From contig CAYLRA010000010.1 of assembly GCA_964386045.1 (NCBI GenBank), forward strand, positions 8,809 to 72,808: 64,000 bases of DNA. Reading direction: 5' to 3'. Both the position numbers and the translations under genes were made by a program. Shown one piece after another: positions 16,242 to 48,421 of the stretch (positions within the stretch are counted from its first letter, which is position 1; every line of letters begins with the position of its first letter). The notes beneath the pieces are model-generated. The model did not search any database and was not told where the DNA came from. It worked only from the letters and a program-made list of their open reading frames with translations. The DNA comes from an uncultured Verrucomicrobiaceae bacterium (GTDB taxonomy: Bacteria > Pseudomonadota > Gammaproteobacteria > Pseudomonadales > CAMLJR01).

Positions 16242-16318
16242 GGCAAGGTAGCTCAGCTGGTTAGAGCACAGCACTCATAATGCTGGGGTCCCCGGTTCGA
16301 TTCCGGGCCTTGCTACCA
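16242..16318 (+). tRNA. tRNA-Met, elongator-like (anticodon CAT; lysidine-modified tRNA-Ile2 not excluded)
   Basis: GGCAAGGTAGCTCAGCTGGTTAGAGCACAGCACTCATAATGCTGGGGTCCCCGGTTCGATTCCGGGCCTTGCTACCA. The cloverleaf folds by hand (anticodon loop CT-CAT-AA) and closely resembles E. coli metT-type tRNA. Confidence 0.88.
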
Positions 16319-16326
16319 AATACAAA

Positions 16327-16354
16327 GGCTCGCCCCACAAGGGCGGGCCTTTTT
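16327..16354 (+). terminator. Rho-independent terminator after tRNA-Met
   Basis: GGCTCGCCC-CACAA-GGGCGGGCC followed by TTTTT. Confidence 0.75.
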
Positions 16355-16356
16355 GA

Positions 16357-16385
16357 TTGAAACTCCGCGACAACCGGCCTAGTAT
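16357..16385 (+). promoter_or_regulatory. Near-consensus sigma70 promoter driving the structured RNA / PemK-like gene
   Basis: TTGAAA (16357-16362), a 17-nt spacer, TAGTAT (16380-16385). Predicted TSS around 16392. Confidence 0.55.
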
Positions 16386-16391
16386 CCCGAG

Positions 16392-16514
16392 CTGTCTCCG
16401 GTGAAAGCCGGTTGGAGTCTGCCTCCCGAGAGGTCGAGGCAGCGGCGCAGCGAAGTGATTGCAAGCTTCGCTGCGTGTCGGATCTGGAGCCGCCCTCGGG
16501 CGGCTTTGCTTTTT
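16392..16514 (+). ncRNA. Candidate ~120-nt structured RNA (three hairpins plus intrinsic terminator), unclassified
   Basis: H1 16396-16417 (CTCCGG..CCGG..GGAG). H2 16419-16442 (CTGCCTC-10 nt-GAGGCAG). H3 16446-16475 (CGCAGCGAAG-10 nt-CTTCGCTGCG). Terminator 16488-16514 (AGCCGCC-CTCG-GGCGGCT then TTGCTTTTT). No plausible ORF in this stretch. Confidence 0.45.
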
Positions 16515-16521
16515 CCAGGGA

Positions 16522-16926
16522 ATGGAAATGCCTCTGAATGGATTCTTCCCGAAGCCGGGACAGGTATTGCTGTGTGACTTCAACCGCGGCTTCGTACCAC
16601 CGGAAATGGTCAAGAGCCGCCCCTGCGTTGTGGTCTCCGCCGCCCGGACTCATGGACGACGTCTCTGTTGTGTGGTCCCGCTGTCGACCACCGCCCCGAA
16701 CAGTGTGCACGGCCTGGCTCACCGCCTGCCGCAAAACCCCTGCCCAGACTTCTCTGCTGCGGTCGCCGTCTGGGCCAAATGCGACATGCTCTACACCGTG
16801 AGCTTCGAGCGCCTGAACAAGCTGCATAAGAAAACGAGAAAGGGGCGGGTCTATTACGTACCCACCATTGAAGCGATGGACCTCGTCGCCATTCGTGCCT
16901 GCATCCGTGCCTATCTGGAACTTTGA
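16522..16926 (+). CDS. PemK/MazF-fold toxin-like protein (orphan; no adjacent protein antitoxin)
   Basis: FPKPGQVLLCDFNRGFVPPEMVKSRPCVVVS...CCVVPLSTT parallels the MazF/PemK pattern G-x-(I/V)-x-x-x-D-F...E-x-x-K-x-R-P-x-V-V-x-S...V-P-x-(S/T)-T. ATG at 16522 or, better spaced from AGGGA, at 16528. The ORF-track start at 16459 lies inside the terminator hairpin and is rejected. Confidence 0.7.
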   Translation: MEMPLNGFFPKPGQVLLCDFNRGFVPPEMVKSRPCVVVSAARTHGRRLCCVVPLSTTAPNSVHGLAHRLPQNPCPDFSAAVAVWAKCDMLYTVSFERLNKLHKKTRKGRVYYVPTIEAMDLVAIRACIRAYLEL

Positions 16927-17017: not shown

Positions 17018-18364
17018 TCACTCCACCGGCTCCTCCTCGTGCGCCGGGCAGCAGCGGTAGTCGGCGTGTTTCTCCAGCAGCTCGATCTGCCGTTTCAGCA
17101 GCTGGTTCTGCAGCTCCTTCTCTTCCAGTTCGAGCGCGATCTCCTTCTGCCGCGCCGGTTCACAGACGCTGCACTCGTCGATGCACCCCTTCACCACCAG
17201 ACCGCCGGTCGGGATCAGCTCCTGCCGCTCCCACGACAGCTCGGCGATGATCTTCTCGGTCGGCGTGCCGTCGGCCTTGATCATGCCGGCCTTCTCCAGC
17301 TGCTGCTGCACCGACTTGACCGCGGCGGTGCGCAGGTCGGGCTCGATCGCCACCGGTGACGCCAGCGTCGCCGAGGCGAAGTTCACGCGGTTGGCGACAA
17401 GCAGGCCGGAGCCGACCGCCGTGGTGCCCTGCAGGCGCTCCAGCGTGCTGGTGCGATCGGCGCGCTCCAGCACCAGCCGATTCTCGGCTGTCGCCAGCAC
17501 CGCCTGCGGAATCACCGCCACCCTGTTGGGCACTCGCGGTGTCGGTGCCACCGCCGTCGGCGCCGAGCTGTCTCCGGCCTGCGTCTCGATCGCCACCAGC
17601 CGCCAGCGGATGCGCTGCACCTTCATCAGTTGCCAGACGAAGTAGTTGACGACATGACAGCGGTTTTCGTTGCTGATGGTGCGCGAGCTCGACTCGTAGT
17701 GCGCCTCACTCTCGCCCTGCGCATGTTCGCGTGTCTCCACTTCGCCAACCGACACCGCGCGCGAGGCGCGCACCGAAGCCGCGGAGTAGCTCGACGCCGA
17801 CGATGCGTGCTGCGTCAGCGAACGGGCAAAGTCACGCGTCGAATCGGCCGAGTAGGAACCGCCCCCGCCACCCCCGCCGATCTTGATGATGCCGAAAAGA
17901 TTGACCGAGGCGCCGCCACCGCCCTCCGCCCAGCTCTCCTCGAACGTGCTGTTGGTACTGGAGTTCTCGGAGATGCTGAGATCGCTGACCGCCTGCGCGA
18001 AGGCGAAGCTGTAATGGCTCTCGCTGGACGTGCGTTCGTGGCGGTAGGCAAGCGACGTCTCGCGATCGTAGGACCAGCGCGACGATTTGTCGGAAACGAA
18101 TAACCTGACCTTCTCGCCCGGCAGCAGGCTGACGGTGTGCTGCAGATCGCCGAGCGCGGTGCCCTGACTACAGCGCTCGTACTCGAACACCAATGTGACA
18201 TCGACCGGCACACGCCGGTCATTGACCGCCGACCGGAACGGCAGTTGATAGCGAAAATTGAGGCGCTCGTCGCAGGGCTTGTCGACCAGCGGCGGACAGC
18301 AGGGAATGGCGAGGCCGTTCTTGCCCGGGTGGGCAACGGCATTTTCCGTGGCTCTGGGTGACAT
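17018..18364 (-). CDS. Hypothetical protein, 448 aa, no family recognised
   Basis: Strong RBS (AAGGAGGA, complement of 18371-18378) 6 nt before the ATG. Terminal Cys clusters (IPCCPPLVDKPC; CIDECSVC...YRCCP), a Ser/Thr-rich central segment with a Gly7 run (FGIIKIGGGGGGGSYS), and a C-terminal heptad-like segment (EIALELEEKELQNQLLKRQIELLEK). No signal peptide. Confidence 0.6.
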   Translation of the reverse strand: MSPRATENAVAHPGKNGLAIPCCPPLVDKPCDERLNFRYQLPFRSAVNDRRVPVDVTLVFEYERCSQGTALGDLQHTVSLLPGEKVRLFVSDKSSRWSYDRETSLAYRHERTSSESHYSFAFAQAVSDLSISENSSTNSTFEESWAEGGGGASVNLFGIIKIGGGGGGGSYSADSTRDFARSLTQHASSASSYSAASVRASRAVSVGEVETREHAQGESEAHYESSSRTISNENRCHVVNYFVWQLMKVQRIRWRLVAIETQAGDSSAPTAVAPTPRVPNRVAVIPQAVLATAENRLVLERADRTSTLERLQGTTAVGSGLLVANRVNFASATLASPVAIEPDLRTAAVKSVQQQLEKAGMIKADGTPTEKIIAELSWERQELIPTGGLVVKGCIDECSVCEPARQKEIALELEEKELQNQLLKRQIELLEKHADYRCCPAHEEEPVE

Positions 18365-46309: not shown

Positions 46310-48421
46310 ATGAGCGAACTGACCTTCGCAGGCCTCGGCCTGCCCGAAACCCTTCTTTCGACGATCACCCGCCTCGGTTACGAGAAGCCGTCGCCGATCC
46401 AGGCGCAGGCCATTCCCGCGCTGCTGGAAGGGCGCGACCTGATCGGCCAGGCGCAGACCGGCACCGGCAAGACCGCCGCCTTCGCGCTGCCGATCCTGGC
46501 CACGATCAACCCCGAACACTCGCAGCCGCAGGCGCTGATTCTGGCGCCGACCCGCGAGCTGGCGATGCAGGTCGCCGATGCGCTGACCACCTACAGCGAA
46601 AACGTCGGCAACTGCCGCGTGCTCGCCGTCTACGGCGGCCAGTCGATGCGCGACCAGCTGCAGGCGCTGCGTCAGGGCGTGCAGATCGTGGTTGGCACCC
46701 CCGGCCGCCTGCTCGACCACCTCGAGCGCAAGAGCCTCGATCTGTCCGCGCTGAAATGGGTCGTGCTCGACGAAGCCGACGAGATGCTGCGGATGGGCTT
46801 CATCGACGACGTCGAAGCGATCCTCGGCCACACCGGCGGCGTGCAGCAGACCGCGCTGTTCTCGGCGACGATGCCGCCGCGCATCAAGCAGATCGCCGAG
46901 CGCTACCTGAAAGACCCGCAGCAGATCGTCATTCCGGCCGCGACCCGCACCAACGCCTCGATCGAGCAGCGCGTGCTGGCCGTGCGCCAGCGCGACAAGG
47001 CCGCCGCCGTGGTGCGCCTGCTGGCCAGCGAGGATTGCGACGCGACGATCATCTTCACCCGCACCCGCGAGAGCACGGTCGAGCTGGCCGACTTCCTCAG
47101 CGGCTTCGGCCACGCCGCCACCGCCATCAACGGCGACATGAACCAGGCACAACGCGAGCAGACCATCGCGCTGCTGAAGCAGGGCAAGATCGACGTGCTG
47201 GTGGCAACGGACGTCGCCGCGCGCGGCCTCGATGTCGAGCGCATCAGCCACGTCATCAACTTCGACCTGCCGATGGAATCGGACACCTACGTGCACCGCA
47301 TCGGTCGCACCGGTCGCGCCGGTCGCAGCGGCAAGGCGATCCTGCTGGCCGATCCGCGCGATCGCAGCAAGATCGGTTTCATCGAGCGCGCCACGCGCCA
47401 GCCGCTGCTGCCGATGGAGCTGCCCTCCGATGAGGAGCTGCGCGCATTGGCCGAGCAGCGTTTCCGGCTGAAGCTGGCCGACCACCTGCACAGCGGCGAC
47501 AGCACGCGCTGGCAGCCGCTGCTCGACTCGCTGTGCCAGGAGATGGATCTCGGCGCCGATGTCATCGCCGCCGGCCTGATCGGTCTGCTCGCGCAACAGC
47601 AGGGCGTCGCCCGCAAGCTGCCGAGCGTGAACGAGGTATCGGCAGAGCGCGCACCGCGCGAACGCAAACCGCGTGAAGAGGGCGCGACCTTCAGCGGCAC
47701 CATGCAGAGCTACCGTATCGCCGTCGGCCGCGCTCACCGCGCGCAGGTCGGCGACATCGTCGGCGCCATCGCCAACGAAGCCGGCCTCAACAGCGGGCAG
47801 ATCGGTCGCATCCAGCTCTACGAAACCTTCAGCACCGTCGACCTGCCGAACGACCTGCCGGCGAACATCATCCAGCAACTGAAAGCGGTGCGGGTGCGCA
47901 ACCAGGCGCTGGAGATCGAACCGTTCGACGAGGGCGATGCGATGGTGCGCGAAATGCGTCCGCCGCGCCGCGCACCGCGCGATCGCGATGACGCCCGTCC
48001 CGGCCCGCGCCAGGAGCGTCCGCGCGGCGACCGTCCGGACCAGCGTGCACCCCGTTTCGAGCAGCGCCCCGACAGCCGCGCCCCGCGCCGCGACAACGAC
48101 CGCCCCGCCGCGCGCAGCGACGATGCCGACAATCGCGGCAACCGTATCGACAGCCACCACGAACCGCGCTACGGCAATCGCACCGACAGTCGCCCGGACA
48201 ACCGCTATGCACCGCGCACCGACAAGCCGGCCGCACGCCGCGGCGACGCGCGTCCGAGCGATGCGCGCGGCGACTTCCGCAAGCCGGAGGGGCGCAGCTT
48301 CGACCAGCCGTATGCCAAGAAGCCGCGCGTCGAGCGCACCTCGCGCGACGACGGCGGCAGCTCGCCCCGCGATGGCGGCGACAAGGGTGCACCGCGCCAC
48401 CGCATCGCGCTGAAACGCTGA
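46310..48421 (+). CDS. deaD: DEAD-box ATP-dependent RNA helicase, DeaD/CsdA-like, with a long Arg/Asp-rich tail
   Basis: Q-motif [45 protein letters not shown], DbpA-like segment [25 protein letters not shown]. About 160 aa of R/D-rich low complexity at the C-terminus. Confidence 0.9.

What the first reader, a model, noticed from the sequence alone, without database searches (positions are those of the whole stretch)
16357..16926. Promoter, ~120-nt multi-hairpin RNA, intrinsic terminator and an orphan PemK/MazF-fold gene next to tRNA-Met: candidate RNA-controlled (type III-like) toxin module
Seen in the sequence:
- A near-consensus promoter: TTGAAA, 17 nt, TAGTAT (16357-16385).
- Three back-to-back stable hairpins: 16396-16417; 16419-16442 (7 bp); 16446-16475 (10 bp).
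- A GC stem plus T-tract terminator (16488-16514).
- Only 8-14 nt later, the start codon of a 134-aa protein with MazF/PemK hallmarks (PKPGQVLLCDF...EMVKSRPCVVVS...VVPLSTT).
- No same-strand ORF that could encode a protein antitoxin. Upstream is RNA-like sequence only, and downstream is 90 bp followed by a convergent gene.

Established knowledge: type III TA loci (ToxIN, CptIN, TenpIN) are organised as promoter, antitoxin RNA, terminator, toxin. ToxN is structurally related to the Kid/MazF fold.

Inference: this may be a MazF-fold toxin held in check by a cis-encoded structured RNA or by a terminator-based attenuator.

Caveat: the RNA has no tandem repeats, unlike known type III antitoxins. 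It could equally be an ordinary leader or an unrelated sRNA.
Basis: partly seen in the sequence, partly recalled or inferred. Interest (0 to 1): 0.7.

Follow-up and report, generated by a model that had tools for sequence, protein, structure and literature searches.

The report
MazF-like toxin paired with small RNA
A small MazF-type RNA-cutting toxin gene with no protein antidote is always found beside one particular, previously undescribed ~125-nt structured RNA gene in prophages and genomic islands of many bacteria, so the RNA is probably its antidote.

Summary
Window 16357-16926 holds a sigma-70-like promoter, a ~125-nt three-hairpin RNA ending in an intrinsic terminator, and a 132-aa MazF-fold (PemK/YifN-family) gene starting at 16528.

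The RNA is not a chance leader. It is a conserved RNA family absent from Rfam 15, with 93% of cells paired and 28 of 31 pairs showing compensatory changes.

All 80 genome loci encoding a homologue carry this RNA within about 100 nt:
- 36 upstream, as in the window;
- 39 downstream on the same strand;
- 1 downstream and convergent;
- 4 seen by eye only (three lack hairpin P3, one is N-masked).

The RNA nearly always has its own promoter and terminator. No protein neighbour is conserved.

Searching from the RNA side finds the gene adjacent in 26 of 28 viral-contig hits. In metagenomes the RNA sometimes survives after the toxin gene was deleted or replaced. The reverse was never seen.

The modules sit in prophage immunity regions, integrase islands and plasmids.

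Best reading (inferred, untested): a type III-like toxin-antitoxin or abortive-infection pair in which a single-copy structured sRNA neutralises a canonical MazF-fold RNase. A cis-acting leader or attenuator and an antisense mechanism are disfavoured.

The parts
16357..16385 (+). Sigma-70-type promoter of the RNA gene: -35 TTGAAA (16357-16362), 17-nt spacer, -10 TAGTAT (16380-16385). Predicted transcription start about 16390-16393.
   Evidence: In 49 related RNAs the best promoter match scores at least 8 of 12 in 38. In 34 of them the -10 box ends 0-6 nt before the model start.
16392..16516 (+). Structured sRNA of about 125 nt, a new family not in Rfam. Full-length covariance-model match.
   Evidence: R1 116 bits, R2 105.8 bits. 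No Rfam family covers the hairpin region 16390-16485 at E <= 10; the only match inside the RNA is a sub-threshold one over P3 and the terminator. Covariation. Stops occur in all three frames across homologues and indels are not multiples of three, so it is non-coding.
16398..16411 (+). P1 hairpin CCGGU-GAAA-GCCGG.
   Evidence: All 5 pairs show double-sided changes across the family; 93.6% of cells paired.
16412..16418 (+). J1/2 single-stranded junction UUGGAGU. Family consensus is CUUGnGAGU, or CUUGnnAGA in the downstream-type RNAs, followed by the conserved CU(G) that opens P2. Among the most conserved, unpaired segments.
16419..16442 (+). P2 hairpin CUGCCUC...GAGGCAG, with an inner 2-bp stem and a GAGA loop.
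   Evidence: 6 of 7 pairs with compensatory changes. One extra outer pair is supported.
16445..16476 (+). P3 hairpin with the conserved loop GAUUGCAA (16457-16464). Family consensus of loop plus closing bases is GCGAUnnCAAGCU. P3 is missing in a few 'mini' variants.
16486..16514 (+). Intrinsic terminator: 9-bp GC-rich stem, CUCG loop, then an interrupted U-tract GCUUUUU. It separates the RNA from the toxin gene.
   Evidence: All 10 pairs covary in the family.
16517..16522 (+). Shine-Dalgarno AGGGAA of the toxin gene. There is no room for a separate promoter, so expression must come from terminator read-through (inference).
   Evidence: Sequence. The same layout appears in the upstream-type loci.
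16528..16926 (+). 132-aa PemK/MazF-fold protein of the 'YifN' subfamily, the putative endoribonuclease toxin. E26, R31 and S53/T54 align with E. coli MazF E24, R29 and T52.
   Evidence: Pfam PF02452. 283 homologues. Invariant residues. AF2 pLDDT 86.8. Foldseek top hits are MazF-mt1 and E. coli MazF, target-normalised TM about 0.7-0.8. Profile alignment to MazF.

Best explanation
This is a two-gene selfish or defence module: a strongly promoted, independently terminated ~125-nt structured sRNA plus a MazF-fold (PemK/YifN-subfamily) endoribonuclease.

Proposed mechanism (inferred): the sRNA is made in excess and binds the RNase directly, holding it inactive. The conserved unpaired segments, J1/2 'CUUGnGAGUCUG' and the P3 loop 'GAUnnCAAGC', would act as a pseudo-substrate in the RNA-binding groove of the MazF dimer. 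That is a type III-like RNA antitoxin.

In the window's arrangement the toxin gene has no promoter of its own. It is translated only from transcripts that read through the RNA's terminator, which fixes a high RNA-to-toxin ratio, as in ToxIN.

When RNA supply falls, the more stable RNase would be freed and would cut cellular or phage RNA. Supply could fall through loss of the element, or through shut-off of host or prophage transcription during phage infection. The outcome is addiction or abortive infection.

Shown here:
- the RNA family and its structure;
- the obligate RNA-gene linkage in either order and orientation;
- the RNA's own promoter and terminator;
- the MazF fold with catalytic residues kept;
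- the absence of any conserved protein partner;
- residence on mobile elements.

Inferred, not shown: toxicity, direct RNA-protein binding, and the trigger.
For: 1. Structure. RNAalifold on 34 upstream RNAs gives 26 pairs, 20 with compensatory changes. On 74 model-aligned RNAs 93.4% of cells are paired, against 70.7% in shuffles and 36-50% when partners are slid. 28 of 31 pairs change on both sides.

2. Linkage from the protein side. All 80 genome loci picked only by the protein carry the RNA next to the gene: 36 upstream, 39 downstream on the same strand, 1 downstream and convergent, and 4 seen by eye only (three lack P3, one is N-masked).

3. Linkage from the RNA side.
- IMG/VR: 8 of 10 upstream-type hits and 18 of 18 downstream-type hits have the gene adjacent. 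One further hit is followed by an IS1595-type transposase.
- Metagenomes: 63 of 106 assessable hits have the gene adjacent.

4. Asymmetry. RNA without the gene exists. At one Pseudomonas putida-group locus the variants are PemK+RNA, RNA alone, HigBA-like+RNA, a HigBA-like cassette with only the RNA's terminator left, and an empty site. The gene without the RNA was never seen.

5. No conserved neighbouring protein across genera. No antitoxin ORF in the window.

6. The RNA has its own promoter at a fixed distance and its own terminator in both arrangements.

7. The protein has the MazF fold, with E/R/S-T matching MazF E24/R29/T52 invariant in the family.

8. Context fits lysogen-expressed defence or addiction genes:
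- directly after CI/LexA-like S24 repressors in a Pseudomonas prophage, two IMG/VR contigs and a Vibrio Vinavirales temperate element;
- beside P4-type integrases;
- on plasmids;
- near P1-type C4 immunity RNAs.

9. Precedent for a non-repeat structured RNA antitoxin: AbiF/RCd22 (bioRxiv 10.1101/2025.04.15.648962).
Against: - No experiment shows toxicity, binding or neutralisation.
- The RNA lacks the tandem repeats of every established type III antitoxin, and the protein is not a ToxN/AbiQ-family member.
- PADLOC has no model matching the protein.
- About 40% of RNA hits in metagenomes lack the gene. Some of these keep compensatory changes in P2, seen by eye in the sequences, so the RNA may have a function of its own.
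- Some RNAs follow hicAB or HigA-like type II modules. The RNA could therefore mark a cassette hotspot rather than serve only PemK.
- E. coli yifN has no model-detectable RNA.
Confidence: 0.55

Rival explanations
1. RNA-protein partnership of another kind. The MazF-fold protein would be a dedicated processing, turnover or effector enzyme for this sRNA, or the RNA would activate or guide it. The RNA would be the primary functional unit, for example a prophage immunity or regulatory RNA with targets elsewhere, rather than an antidote.
For: The RNA persists without the gene, and some of these orphan copies keep compensatory changes in P2 by eye (Pseudomonas putida-group locus). The RNA sits in phage immunity regions, where regulatory RNAs such as C4 are known. 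The most conserved parts are loops and junctions.
Against: The variable parts of the RNA are stems with compensatory changes, not guide-like single strands. The catalytic residues of a generalist toxin fold are invariant. The strict one-way dependence, gene never without RNA, is what a toxin-antidote relation predicts. No candidate target was identified.
Confidence: 0.2
2. Antisense (type I-like) control. The sRNA would base-pair with the toxin mRNA to block its translation or trigger its decay.
For: It is a small RNA gene next to a toxin gene, and RNA antitoxins of type I act this way (established knowledge).
Against: The RNA is almost always on the same strand, so there is no antisense overlap. 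Cognate RNA-TIR duplexes are no better than non-cognate ones: -28.9 against -27.9 kcal/mol, mean rank 0.47, z = -0.36 against shuffles. The longest perfect complement to the cognate mRNA is 7.7 nt against 7.5 nt for non-cognate pairs.
Confidence: 0.08
3. Ordinary cis-acting 5' leader, attenuator or riboswitch of the pemK-like gene.
For: In the window and 36 related loci the RNA lies in the 5' position, with a terminator 13 nt before the start codon.
Against: In 44 of 80 loci the same RNA lies downstream of the gene, once on the opposite strand. It has its own promoter in the loci checked. It also occurs with no such gene. By eye, no alternative antiterminator pairing is conserved between the Pseudomonas-type and Burkholderia-type sequences (sequences).
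Confidence: 0.04
4. The RNA-like element is mainly a DNA-level or landmark feature: a hotspot or boundary where toxin cassettes such as PemK, HigBA or HicAB are inserted. Its linkage to PemK would then be incidental.
For: One Pseudomonas locus carries different cassettes next to the RNA. In some strains a HigBA-like cassette ends inside it, leaving only the terminator. hicAB precedes the RNA in six metagenome loci.
Against: A conserved promoter and an intrinsic terminator, with many G-U pairs and few non-standard pairs, indicate a transcribed RNA on this strand. 80 of 80 linkage across phyla and gene orders is far beyond what a hotspot would give. The RNA travels with the gene in unrelated phages and plasmids.
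Confidence: 0.05

Closest known systems
Type III toxin-antitoxin systems (ToxIN, CptIN, TenpIN; Abi function)
   Same: - In the window the layout is promoter, RNA, intrinsic terminator, endoribonuclease gene.
- There is no protein antitoxin.
- The toxin fold is related: ToxN resembles Kid/MazF (established knowledge).
- The modules sit on phages and plasmids, with a likely abortive-infection or addiction role.
   Different: - The RNA is a single-copy, three-hairpin, ~125-nt sRNA, not an array of 34-48-nt tandem repeats.
- The toxin is PF02452 (canonical MazF/PemK), not ToxN/AbiQ.
- Gene order is free: the RNA lies downstream in half of the loci and has its own promoter.
- Processing of the RNA by the toxin is unknown.
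AbiF / RCd22 of Clostridioides difficile (abiF RNA motif plus Abi_2 protein), bioRxiv 10.1101/2025.04.15.648962
   Same: - It is prophage-borne.
- A structured, non-ToxI-type ncRNA next to a toxic protein neutralises it in cis and in trans by direct binding, as that paper reports.
- The RNA motif was found by comparative genomics before its function was known.
   Different: - The protein family is unrelated (Abi_2/HEPN-like against the MazF fold).
- The RNA is unrelated: no Rfam match.
- Our pair has no experimental data.
Type II MazEF / PemIK (Kid-Kis)
   Same: The toxin has the same fold. It keeps the residues that align with MazF E24, R29 and T52, and it is annotated as such in RefSeq.
   Different: There is no MazE/PemI-like or any other conserved protein gene beside it in 80 loci. 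Sequence similarity to solved MazF structures is marginal, E about 0.03. It is a distinct subfamily, about 766 clusters at 50% identity with E <= 1e-10.
pemK RNA motif of Bacillota (Rfam; recalled from memory, Weinberg et al. 2017)
   Same: A conserved RNA structure found beside pemK-family genes.
   Different: No Rfam 15 family matches the hairpin region of this RNA even at E <= 10 with permissive filters. The only match inside the RNA is a sub-threshold one over P3 and the terminator. The host phyla and the architecture also differ.

Membership tests
Type III TA (ToxIN/CptIN/TenpIN) | Antitoxin is an RNA made of tandem direct repeats | tested here: not met
   TRF finds no repeat in 16300-16600. 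The family alignment shows one copy of each element.
Type III TA (ToxIN/CptIN/TenpIN) | Toxin belongs to the ToxN/AbiQ, CptN or TenpN protein families | tested here: not met
   The only Pfam hit is PF02452 PemK_toxin. Foldseek's best matches are MazF proteins.
Type III TA (ToxIN/CptIN/TenpIN) | Operon of promoter, RNA, Rho-independent terminator, toxin gene | tested here: met
   Met in the window and in 36 of 80 related loci. The other 44 have the RNA after the gene.
Type III TA (ToxIN/CptIN/TenpIN) | RNA binds the toxin protein and inhibits it; the toxin processes the RNA | not testable with these tools
   Needs co-expression, pull-down or EMSA, and cleavage assays.
Type II MazEF/PemIK | MazF/PemK-fold toxin with the catalytic Arg and Thr/Ser | tested here: met
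Type II MazEF/PemIK | Adjacent, co-transcribed protein antitoxin (MazE/PemI: AbrB- or RHH-type) | tested here: not met
   No such ORF in the window. No neighbour family is shared across genera in 80 loci.
Type I TA | Antisense RNA complementary to the toxin mRNA | tested here: not met
   The RNA is on the same strand. There is no cognate-specific complementarity.
Cis-regulatory leader / riboswitch | RNA element lies consistently in the 5' UTR of the regulated gene | tested here: not met
   Downstream in 43 of 80 loci and convergent in 1, with its own promoter in the loci checked.
Any Rfam 15 family (including pemK, abiF, C4, ToxI) | Covariance-model match at or near the gathering score | tested here: not met
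   At E <= 10 the only match inside 16390-16516 is rnk_pseudo, 19 bits against a gathering score of 55, over P3 and the terminator. A Thr_leader match on the opposite strand, also far below its gathering score, clips the first 30 nt. Nothing at gathering score at the RNA in 17 + 6 related loci or in the whole window.
Known anti-phage defence systems (PADLOC-DB v2) | Protein matches a defence-system model | tested here: not met
   No PADLOC family at E <= 1.

The most novel reading that the evidence does not exclude
This would be the founding example of a new, widespread class of RNA-antitoxin (type III-like) systems. A canonical MazF/PemK-fold RNase would be neutralised by a single-copy, independently transcribed, three-hairpin sRNA instead of a MazE protein or a repeat-array RNA. 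It is carried by prophage immunity regions, islands and plasmids across Pseudomonadota, Acidobacteriota and Geobacter-type Desulfobacterota. Pseudomonas, Burkholderia, Neisseria gonorrhoeae and Vibrio elements are included, and the protein family also includes E. coli yifN. Orphan copies of the RNA, including one on a phage contig, would act as anti-addiction or anti-defence decoys.
Probability: 0.5. Interest if true: 0.85.

Novelty: new variant of a known kind. Interest (0 to 1): 0.8.

Why it matters
MazF/PemK toxins are the textbook type II toxins, and they are thought to need a protein antitoxin. 'Solitary' MazF-like genes such as E. coli yifN have had no explanation.

If this RNA is the antidote, three things follow:
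- It links the type II and type III worlds: the same fold with an RNA partner.
- It adds a new RNA family of about 125 nt, with strong covariation, to the short list of protein-inhibiting bacterial RNAs.
- It identifies a likely lysogen-expressed abortive-infection module that current defence-finders miss.

It also corrects many database protein models whose N-terminal extensions read through the RNA gene. The hypothesis can be tested directly with two plasmids in E. coli or Pseudomonas.

Tried and rejected
- Rfam scans of the region with permissive E-values, of the whole window and of 23 related loci found no family for the RNA. Only tRNAs and nearby C4 RNAs came up.
- NCBIfam and PADLOC gave nothing useful for the protein or for the 448-aa neighbour.
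- No downstream repeat of the tRNA-Met 3' end exists in the window, so there is no island att site. No integrase is nearby; the flanks are housekeeping genes.
- The convergent 448-aa ORF is not associated with the module anywhere else.
- A conserved protein partner was sought by all-against-all comparison of flanking ORFs. Only close-species synteny appeared.
- Antisense pairing between the RNA and the toxin mRNA showed no signal.
- A search for a pseudoknot or tertiary covariation among unpaired columns supported only one extra P2 pair. A J1/2 'CUUG' to L3 'CAAG' pairing is broken in the Pseudomonas sequences by eye.
- No small ORF is conserved inside the RNA.
- The E. coli K-12 yifN locus has no covariance-model hit. 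A short hairpin-plus-terminator transcript candidate lies downstream, but homology is not established.
- BLAST of the RNA against cultured phage genomes gave only terminator-sized matches.
- Five full-text literature searches found no paper on yifN function or on this RNA.
- A second weak model hit in the window (47458-47581, 15 bits) has no PemK gene nearby and is taken as chance.
Full report
**1. What is in the window**

tRNA-Met(CAT) lies at 16242-16318 and has its own terminator at about 16327-16354. Directly after it come these elements:
- A sigma-70-type promoter: TTGAAA 16357-16362, 17 nt, TAGTAT 16380-16385.
- Three hairpins: P1 16398-16411, P2 16419-16442, P3 16445-16476.
- A GC-rich terminator: stem 16486-16507, tail to 16514.
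- A Shine-Dalgarno sequence, AGGGAA, at 16517-22.
- An ORF ending at 16926.

The 141-nt stretch folds at -69.3 kcal/mol, z = -3.4. There are no tandem repeats.

The ORF matches Pfam PemK_toxin, E = 1.3e-12. Homologues all start M-(P/A/S)-L, and the identical database protein is 132 aa. The start is therefore ATG 16528, not 16522.

No same-strand ORF could encode a protein antitoxin. The flanking genes are housekeeping:
- MarC, EamA and the tRNA on one side.
- On the other side a convergent 448-aa orphan ORF, then GDPD, PhoX and TatC.

No integrase is present. The tRNA 3' end is not repeated.

**2. The protein**

A search found 283 relatives. JGI labels some of them 'uncharacterized protein YifN (PemK superfamily)' and RefSeq labels them 'type II toxin-antitoxin system PemK/MazF family toxin'.

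An exhaustive profile search gives 766 clusters (50% identity) at E <= 1e-10. This is a distinct, medium-sized subfamily.

Twelve columns of the alignment are invariant. They include E26, K29, R31, S37, P51, S53, W82, K84 and R95.

A profile search against PDB sequences aligns the N-terminal half to E. coli MazF. E26, R31 and S53/T54 fall on MazF E24, R29 and T52.

The AlphaFold2 model has pLDDT 86.8 and pTM 0.81. It superposes best on MazF-mt1 and E. coli MazF, with probability 1.0 and target-normalised TM about 0.7-0.8.

The protein is therefore a MazF-fold protein that keeps the catalytic residues. That it is an active, toxic RNase is inference.

**3. The upstream RNA is a conserved, covarying RNA family**

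Eighty genome loci encoding relatives were fetched. In 36 of them the ~125 nt upstream of the gene are plainly alignable with the window. These are Formivibrio, Crenobacter, Kingella, Alysiella, the Pseudomonas fluorescens group, Paraburkholderia, Trinickia, Bordetella, Variovorax, Rubrivivax and others.

The shared layout, in order, is:
- a -10 box;
- P1;
- '(C)UUG/CAG-GAGUCUG';
- P2;
- 'CAGCGGC';
- P3 with loop 'GCGAUnnCAAGCU';
- a linker;
- a terminator with an interrupted U-tract.

RNAalifold predicts 26 pairs, 20 of them with compensatory double changes.

On 74 model-aligned sequences the figures are:
- 93.4% of cells are paired, against 70.7% in column shuffles and 36-50% when partners are slid.
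- 28 of 31 pairs change on both sides.
- G-U pairs are frequent and non-standard pairs are rare, which fits an RNA read from this strand.

Stops occur in all three frames, and indels are not multiples of three, so it is non-coding.

No Rfam 15 family matches the hairpin region of the RNA. This held with permissive thresholds on the window and at gathering score on 23 related loci. The only match inside the RNA is a sub-threshold one over P3 and the terminator.

**4. The key result: the RNA follows the gene whatever the gene order**

A covariance model of the upstream RNAs (R1) was run over all loci. In the loci that lacked an upstream RNA it found full-length matches 0-100 nt downstream of the gene on the same strand.

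Read by eye, these have the same parts:
- their own -10 box;
- P1 'CCCGAUnAAUCGGG';
- 'CUUGnnAGACU';
- P2;
- P3 with loop 'GCGAUGACAAGC';
- a terminator followed by 'UUUGUCUUU'.

A second model built from both arrangements (R2) raised the count. In Oleispira (L080) the RNA gene is convergent to the protein gene and is driven by TTGACA-17-CAGAAT.

The four remaining loci also carry the RNA downstream. Three are 'mini' versions that lack P3, and one is interrupted by masked N's.

The total is 80 of 80:
- 36 upstream;
- 39 downstream on the same strand;
- 1 convergent;
- 4 seen by eye only.

For 49 representative RNAs, the best sigma-70 match scores at least 8 of 12 in 38. In 34 of them the -10 box ends 0-6 nt before the model start. 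The RNA is thus a primary transcript with its own promoter and terminator in both arrangements.

This rules out an ordinary 5' leader, attenuator or riboswitch.

**5. Searching from the RNA side**

Results from IMG/VR viral contigs:
- An upstream-type pattern gave 10 model-confirmed RNAs. Eight have the gene directly downstream.
- One of the other two is followed by an IS1595-type transposase (my reading of the ORF translation).
- The other (L092) is followed by an unrelated 100-aa ORF.
- A downstream-type pattern gave 18 of 18 with the gene 13-77 nt upstream.

The same downstream-type pattern was run on metagenome contigs and returned 120 loci:
- 63 have the gene within 400 nt.
- 14 are too truncated to judge.
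- 43 lack the gene.

The 43 loci without the gene break down as follows:
- About 23 are one polymorphic chromosomal site of the Pseudomonas putida group. It lies between a YbjQ-like lipoprotein gene and a LysR gene.
- Six follow a hicA-hicB operon.
- Three are identical.
- About six are false pattern hits, judged by eye.

At the P. putida-group site, different strains carry different contents:
- PemK+RNA;
- RNA alone;
- a HigA-like gene plus the full RNA;
- a Gp49/HI1420 (HigBA-like) cassette that leaves only the RNA's terminator;
- nothing.

The toxin gene can therefore be lost or replaced while the RNA stays. The converse, an intact gene with no RNA, was never seen.

That one-way dependence is what a toxin-antidote relationship predicts. 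It would also fit a protein that needs the RNA for some other reason.

**6. No protein partner, no antisense**

All-against-all comparison of ORFs flanking the 80 loci found no family shared across genera. Only synteny among close Pseudomonas species appeared.

Cognate RNA-TIR duplex energies do not differ from non-cognate ones or from shuffles. The longest perfect complement between the RNA and its cognate mRNA is 7.7 nt, against 7.5 nt for non-cognate pairs. A type I-like mechanism is unlikely.

**7. Genomic context**

The module is a mobile 'moron'. It is found in these settings:
- In a lambdoid Pseudomonas prophage it sits immediately after the CI-like (HTH+S24) repressor (L082).
- The same holds in two IMG/VR contigs (L089, L115).
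- In 13-kb temperate Vinavirales elements of Vibrio cyclitrophicus the order is LexA/S24 repressor, PemK-like gene, RNA.
- In other contigs it abuts a P4-type integrase (L133) or phage tail genes.
- P1-type C4 immunity RNAs lie about 250-450 nt away in Crenobacter and Pseudomonas citri.
- It occurs on plasmids and in the Neisseria gonorrhoeae chromosome.
- Several upstream-type loci sit about 270-330 nt after different tRNA genes: Ser, Thr and Val, and Met in the window at about 210 nt. One downstream-type locus (L047) follows tRNA-Pro at 178 nt. This fits tRNA-targeted islands.

In the window only the RNA, the gene and perhaps the orphan 448-aa ORF remain between housekeeping genes. That ORF is not linked to the module anywhere else.

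**8. Mechanism**

Best-supported reading, confidence about 0.55: a type III-like toxin-antitoxin or abortive-infection pair.

- The sRNA is made from a strong promoter and ends at an efficient terminator.
- It would bind and inhibit the MazF-fold RNase.
- In the window's arrangement the toxin gene has no promoter. It depends on terminator read-through, which sets a large RNA excess.
- A fall in RNA synthesis would free the enzyme.

The invariant unpaired segments, J1/2 and the P3 loop, are the obvious candidates for occupying the RNA groove of the MazF dimer. This is inference.

A precedent for a structured, non-ToxI-like RNA antitoxin is AbiF/RCd22.

Rivals:
- Another kind of RNA-protein partnership in which the RNA is the main effector, about 0.2. 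It is favoured by the orphan RNA copies, some of which keep compensatory changes in P2 by eye.
- Antisense control, about 0.08.
- Cis-acting leader, about 0.04.
- Insertion-hotspot landmark, about 0.05.

**9. Comparison with known systems, and novelty**

It works like type III TA but fails two membership criteria: the repeat-array RNA and the ToxN-family toxin. It has the type II toxin fold but lacks the defining protein antitoxin.

The RNA is not in Rfam, and the protein is not in PADLOC. Five full-text literature searches found nothing on yifN function or on this RNA.

I rate it a new variant of a known kind: an RNA-antitoxin system with a new toxin family, a new RNA and a new architecture. 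It includes a new RNA family supported by strong covariation. Interest 0.8.

Noticed in passing
window 17018-18364 (-): Convergent 448-aa ORF with no Pfam, NCBIfam or PADLOC match. It has Ser/Gly-rich low-complexity stretches and a C-terminal Cys-containing coiled-coil-like tail. It was found only in this organism's contigs and is not linked to the module elsewhere. It may be cargo of the same mini-island.
   Followed up: partly
L083 (E. coli K-12 NC_000913.3 3959914-3960460, minus strand): E. coli yifN belongs to this protein family and is a frameshifted pseudogene in K-12. The locus is present in 4016 of 5426 complete E. coli genomes. Downstream, after a GATAAT box, lies a ~75-nt hairpin-plus-terminator stretch (z = -2.8). 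It might be a reduced version of the RNA, but neither covariance model matches it.
   Followed up: partly
L260-L265; L164, L194, L203, L207 and others (Pseudomonas putida group): A polymorphic chromosomal site between a YbjQ-like lipoprotein gene and a LysR gene. Strains carry PemK+RNA, RNA alone, a HigA-like gene plus the RNA, a HigBA-like cassette with only the RNA's terminator left, or nothing. This is a natural series of toxin loss or replacement with the RNA retained.
   Followed up: yes
L148 2955-3620 (also L190, L213, L218, L228, L258): In these metagenome contigs the full RNA directly follows a hicA-hicB type II toxin-antitoxin operon, with no PemK-like gene within 400 nt. L148 lies beside what looks like a phage structural gene. 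Either PemK was replaced, or the RNA has a wider association with RNase-toxin cassettes.
   Followed up: partly
L092 5357-5478 (IMG/VR contig): A good copy of the RNA (74 bits) on a viral contig. It is followed by an unrelated 100-aa Cys-rich ORF instead of the toxin gene. It could be a phage-borne decoy antitoxin, like pseudo-ToxI of phage PhiTE. This is a single case.
   Followed up: no
L110 1493-2641 (-): An IS1595-type transposase gene lies directly after the RNA, where the toxin gene would be. No PemK homologue is left on the 13.5-kb stretch.
   Followed up: partly
L002 3434-3623 (-), L011 3445-3646 (-): C4 antisense RNA and its a1/b1 target element (P1/P7-type phage immunity, Rfam RF01695 and RF03163) lie about 250-450 nt upstream of the module on the opposite strand, in Crenobacter luteus and Pseudomonas citri.
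   Followed up: no
P0020, P0043, P0054, P0056, P0086 and others (alignment A1); window 16459-16926: Many database protein models of this family carry spurious N-terminal extensions of up to about 70 aa. These are ORF calls that read through the RNA gene. tblastn with such extensions 'hits' the RNA region (window 16385-16516; L110).
   Followed up: partly
L048, L060, L079 (about 40-150 nt after the gene); alignment A6: 'Mini' variants of the RNA in alphaproteobacterial and Rickettsiales-type MAGs lack hairpin P3 entirely. They keep the promoter, P1, 'CUUGAAAUCCUG', P2 and the terminator. P3 and its conserved loop are therefore dispensable in some lineages.
   Followed up: partly
window 16505-16514 and family-wide: The terminator U-tract is interrupted at a conserved position: CUUUGCUUUUU in the window and Pseudomonas, CUUUUGUCUUU in downstream-type RNAs. 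This holds even where no gene follows, so it is not just a read-through device. It may be part of the functional 3' end.
   Followed up: no
window 47458-47581 (+): Weak second match to the RNA model (15.2 bits, E = 0.045). No PemK-like gene is nearby, so it is taken as chance.
   Followed up: yes
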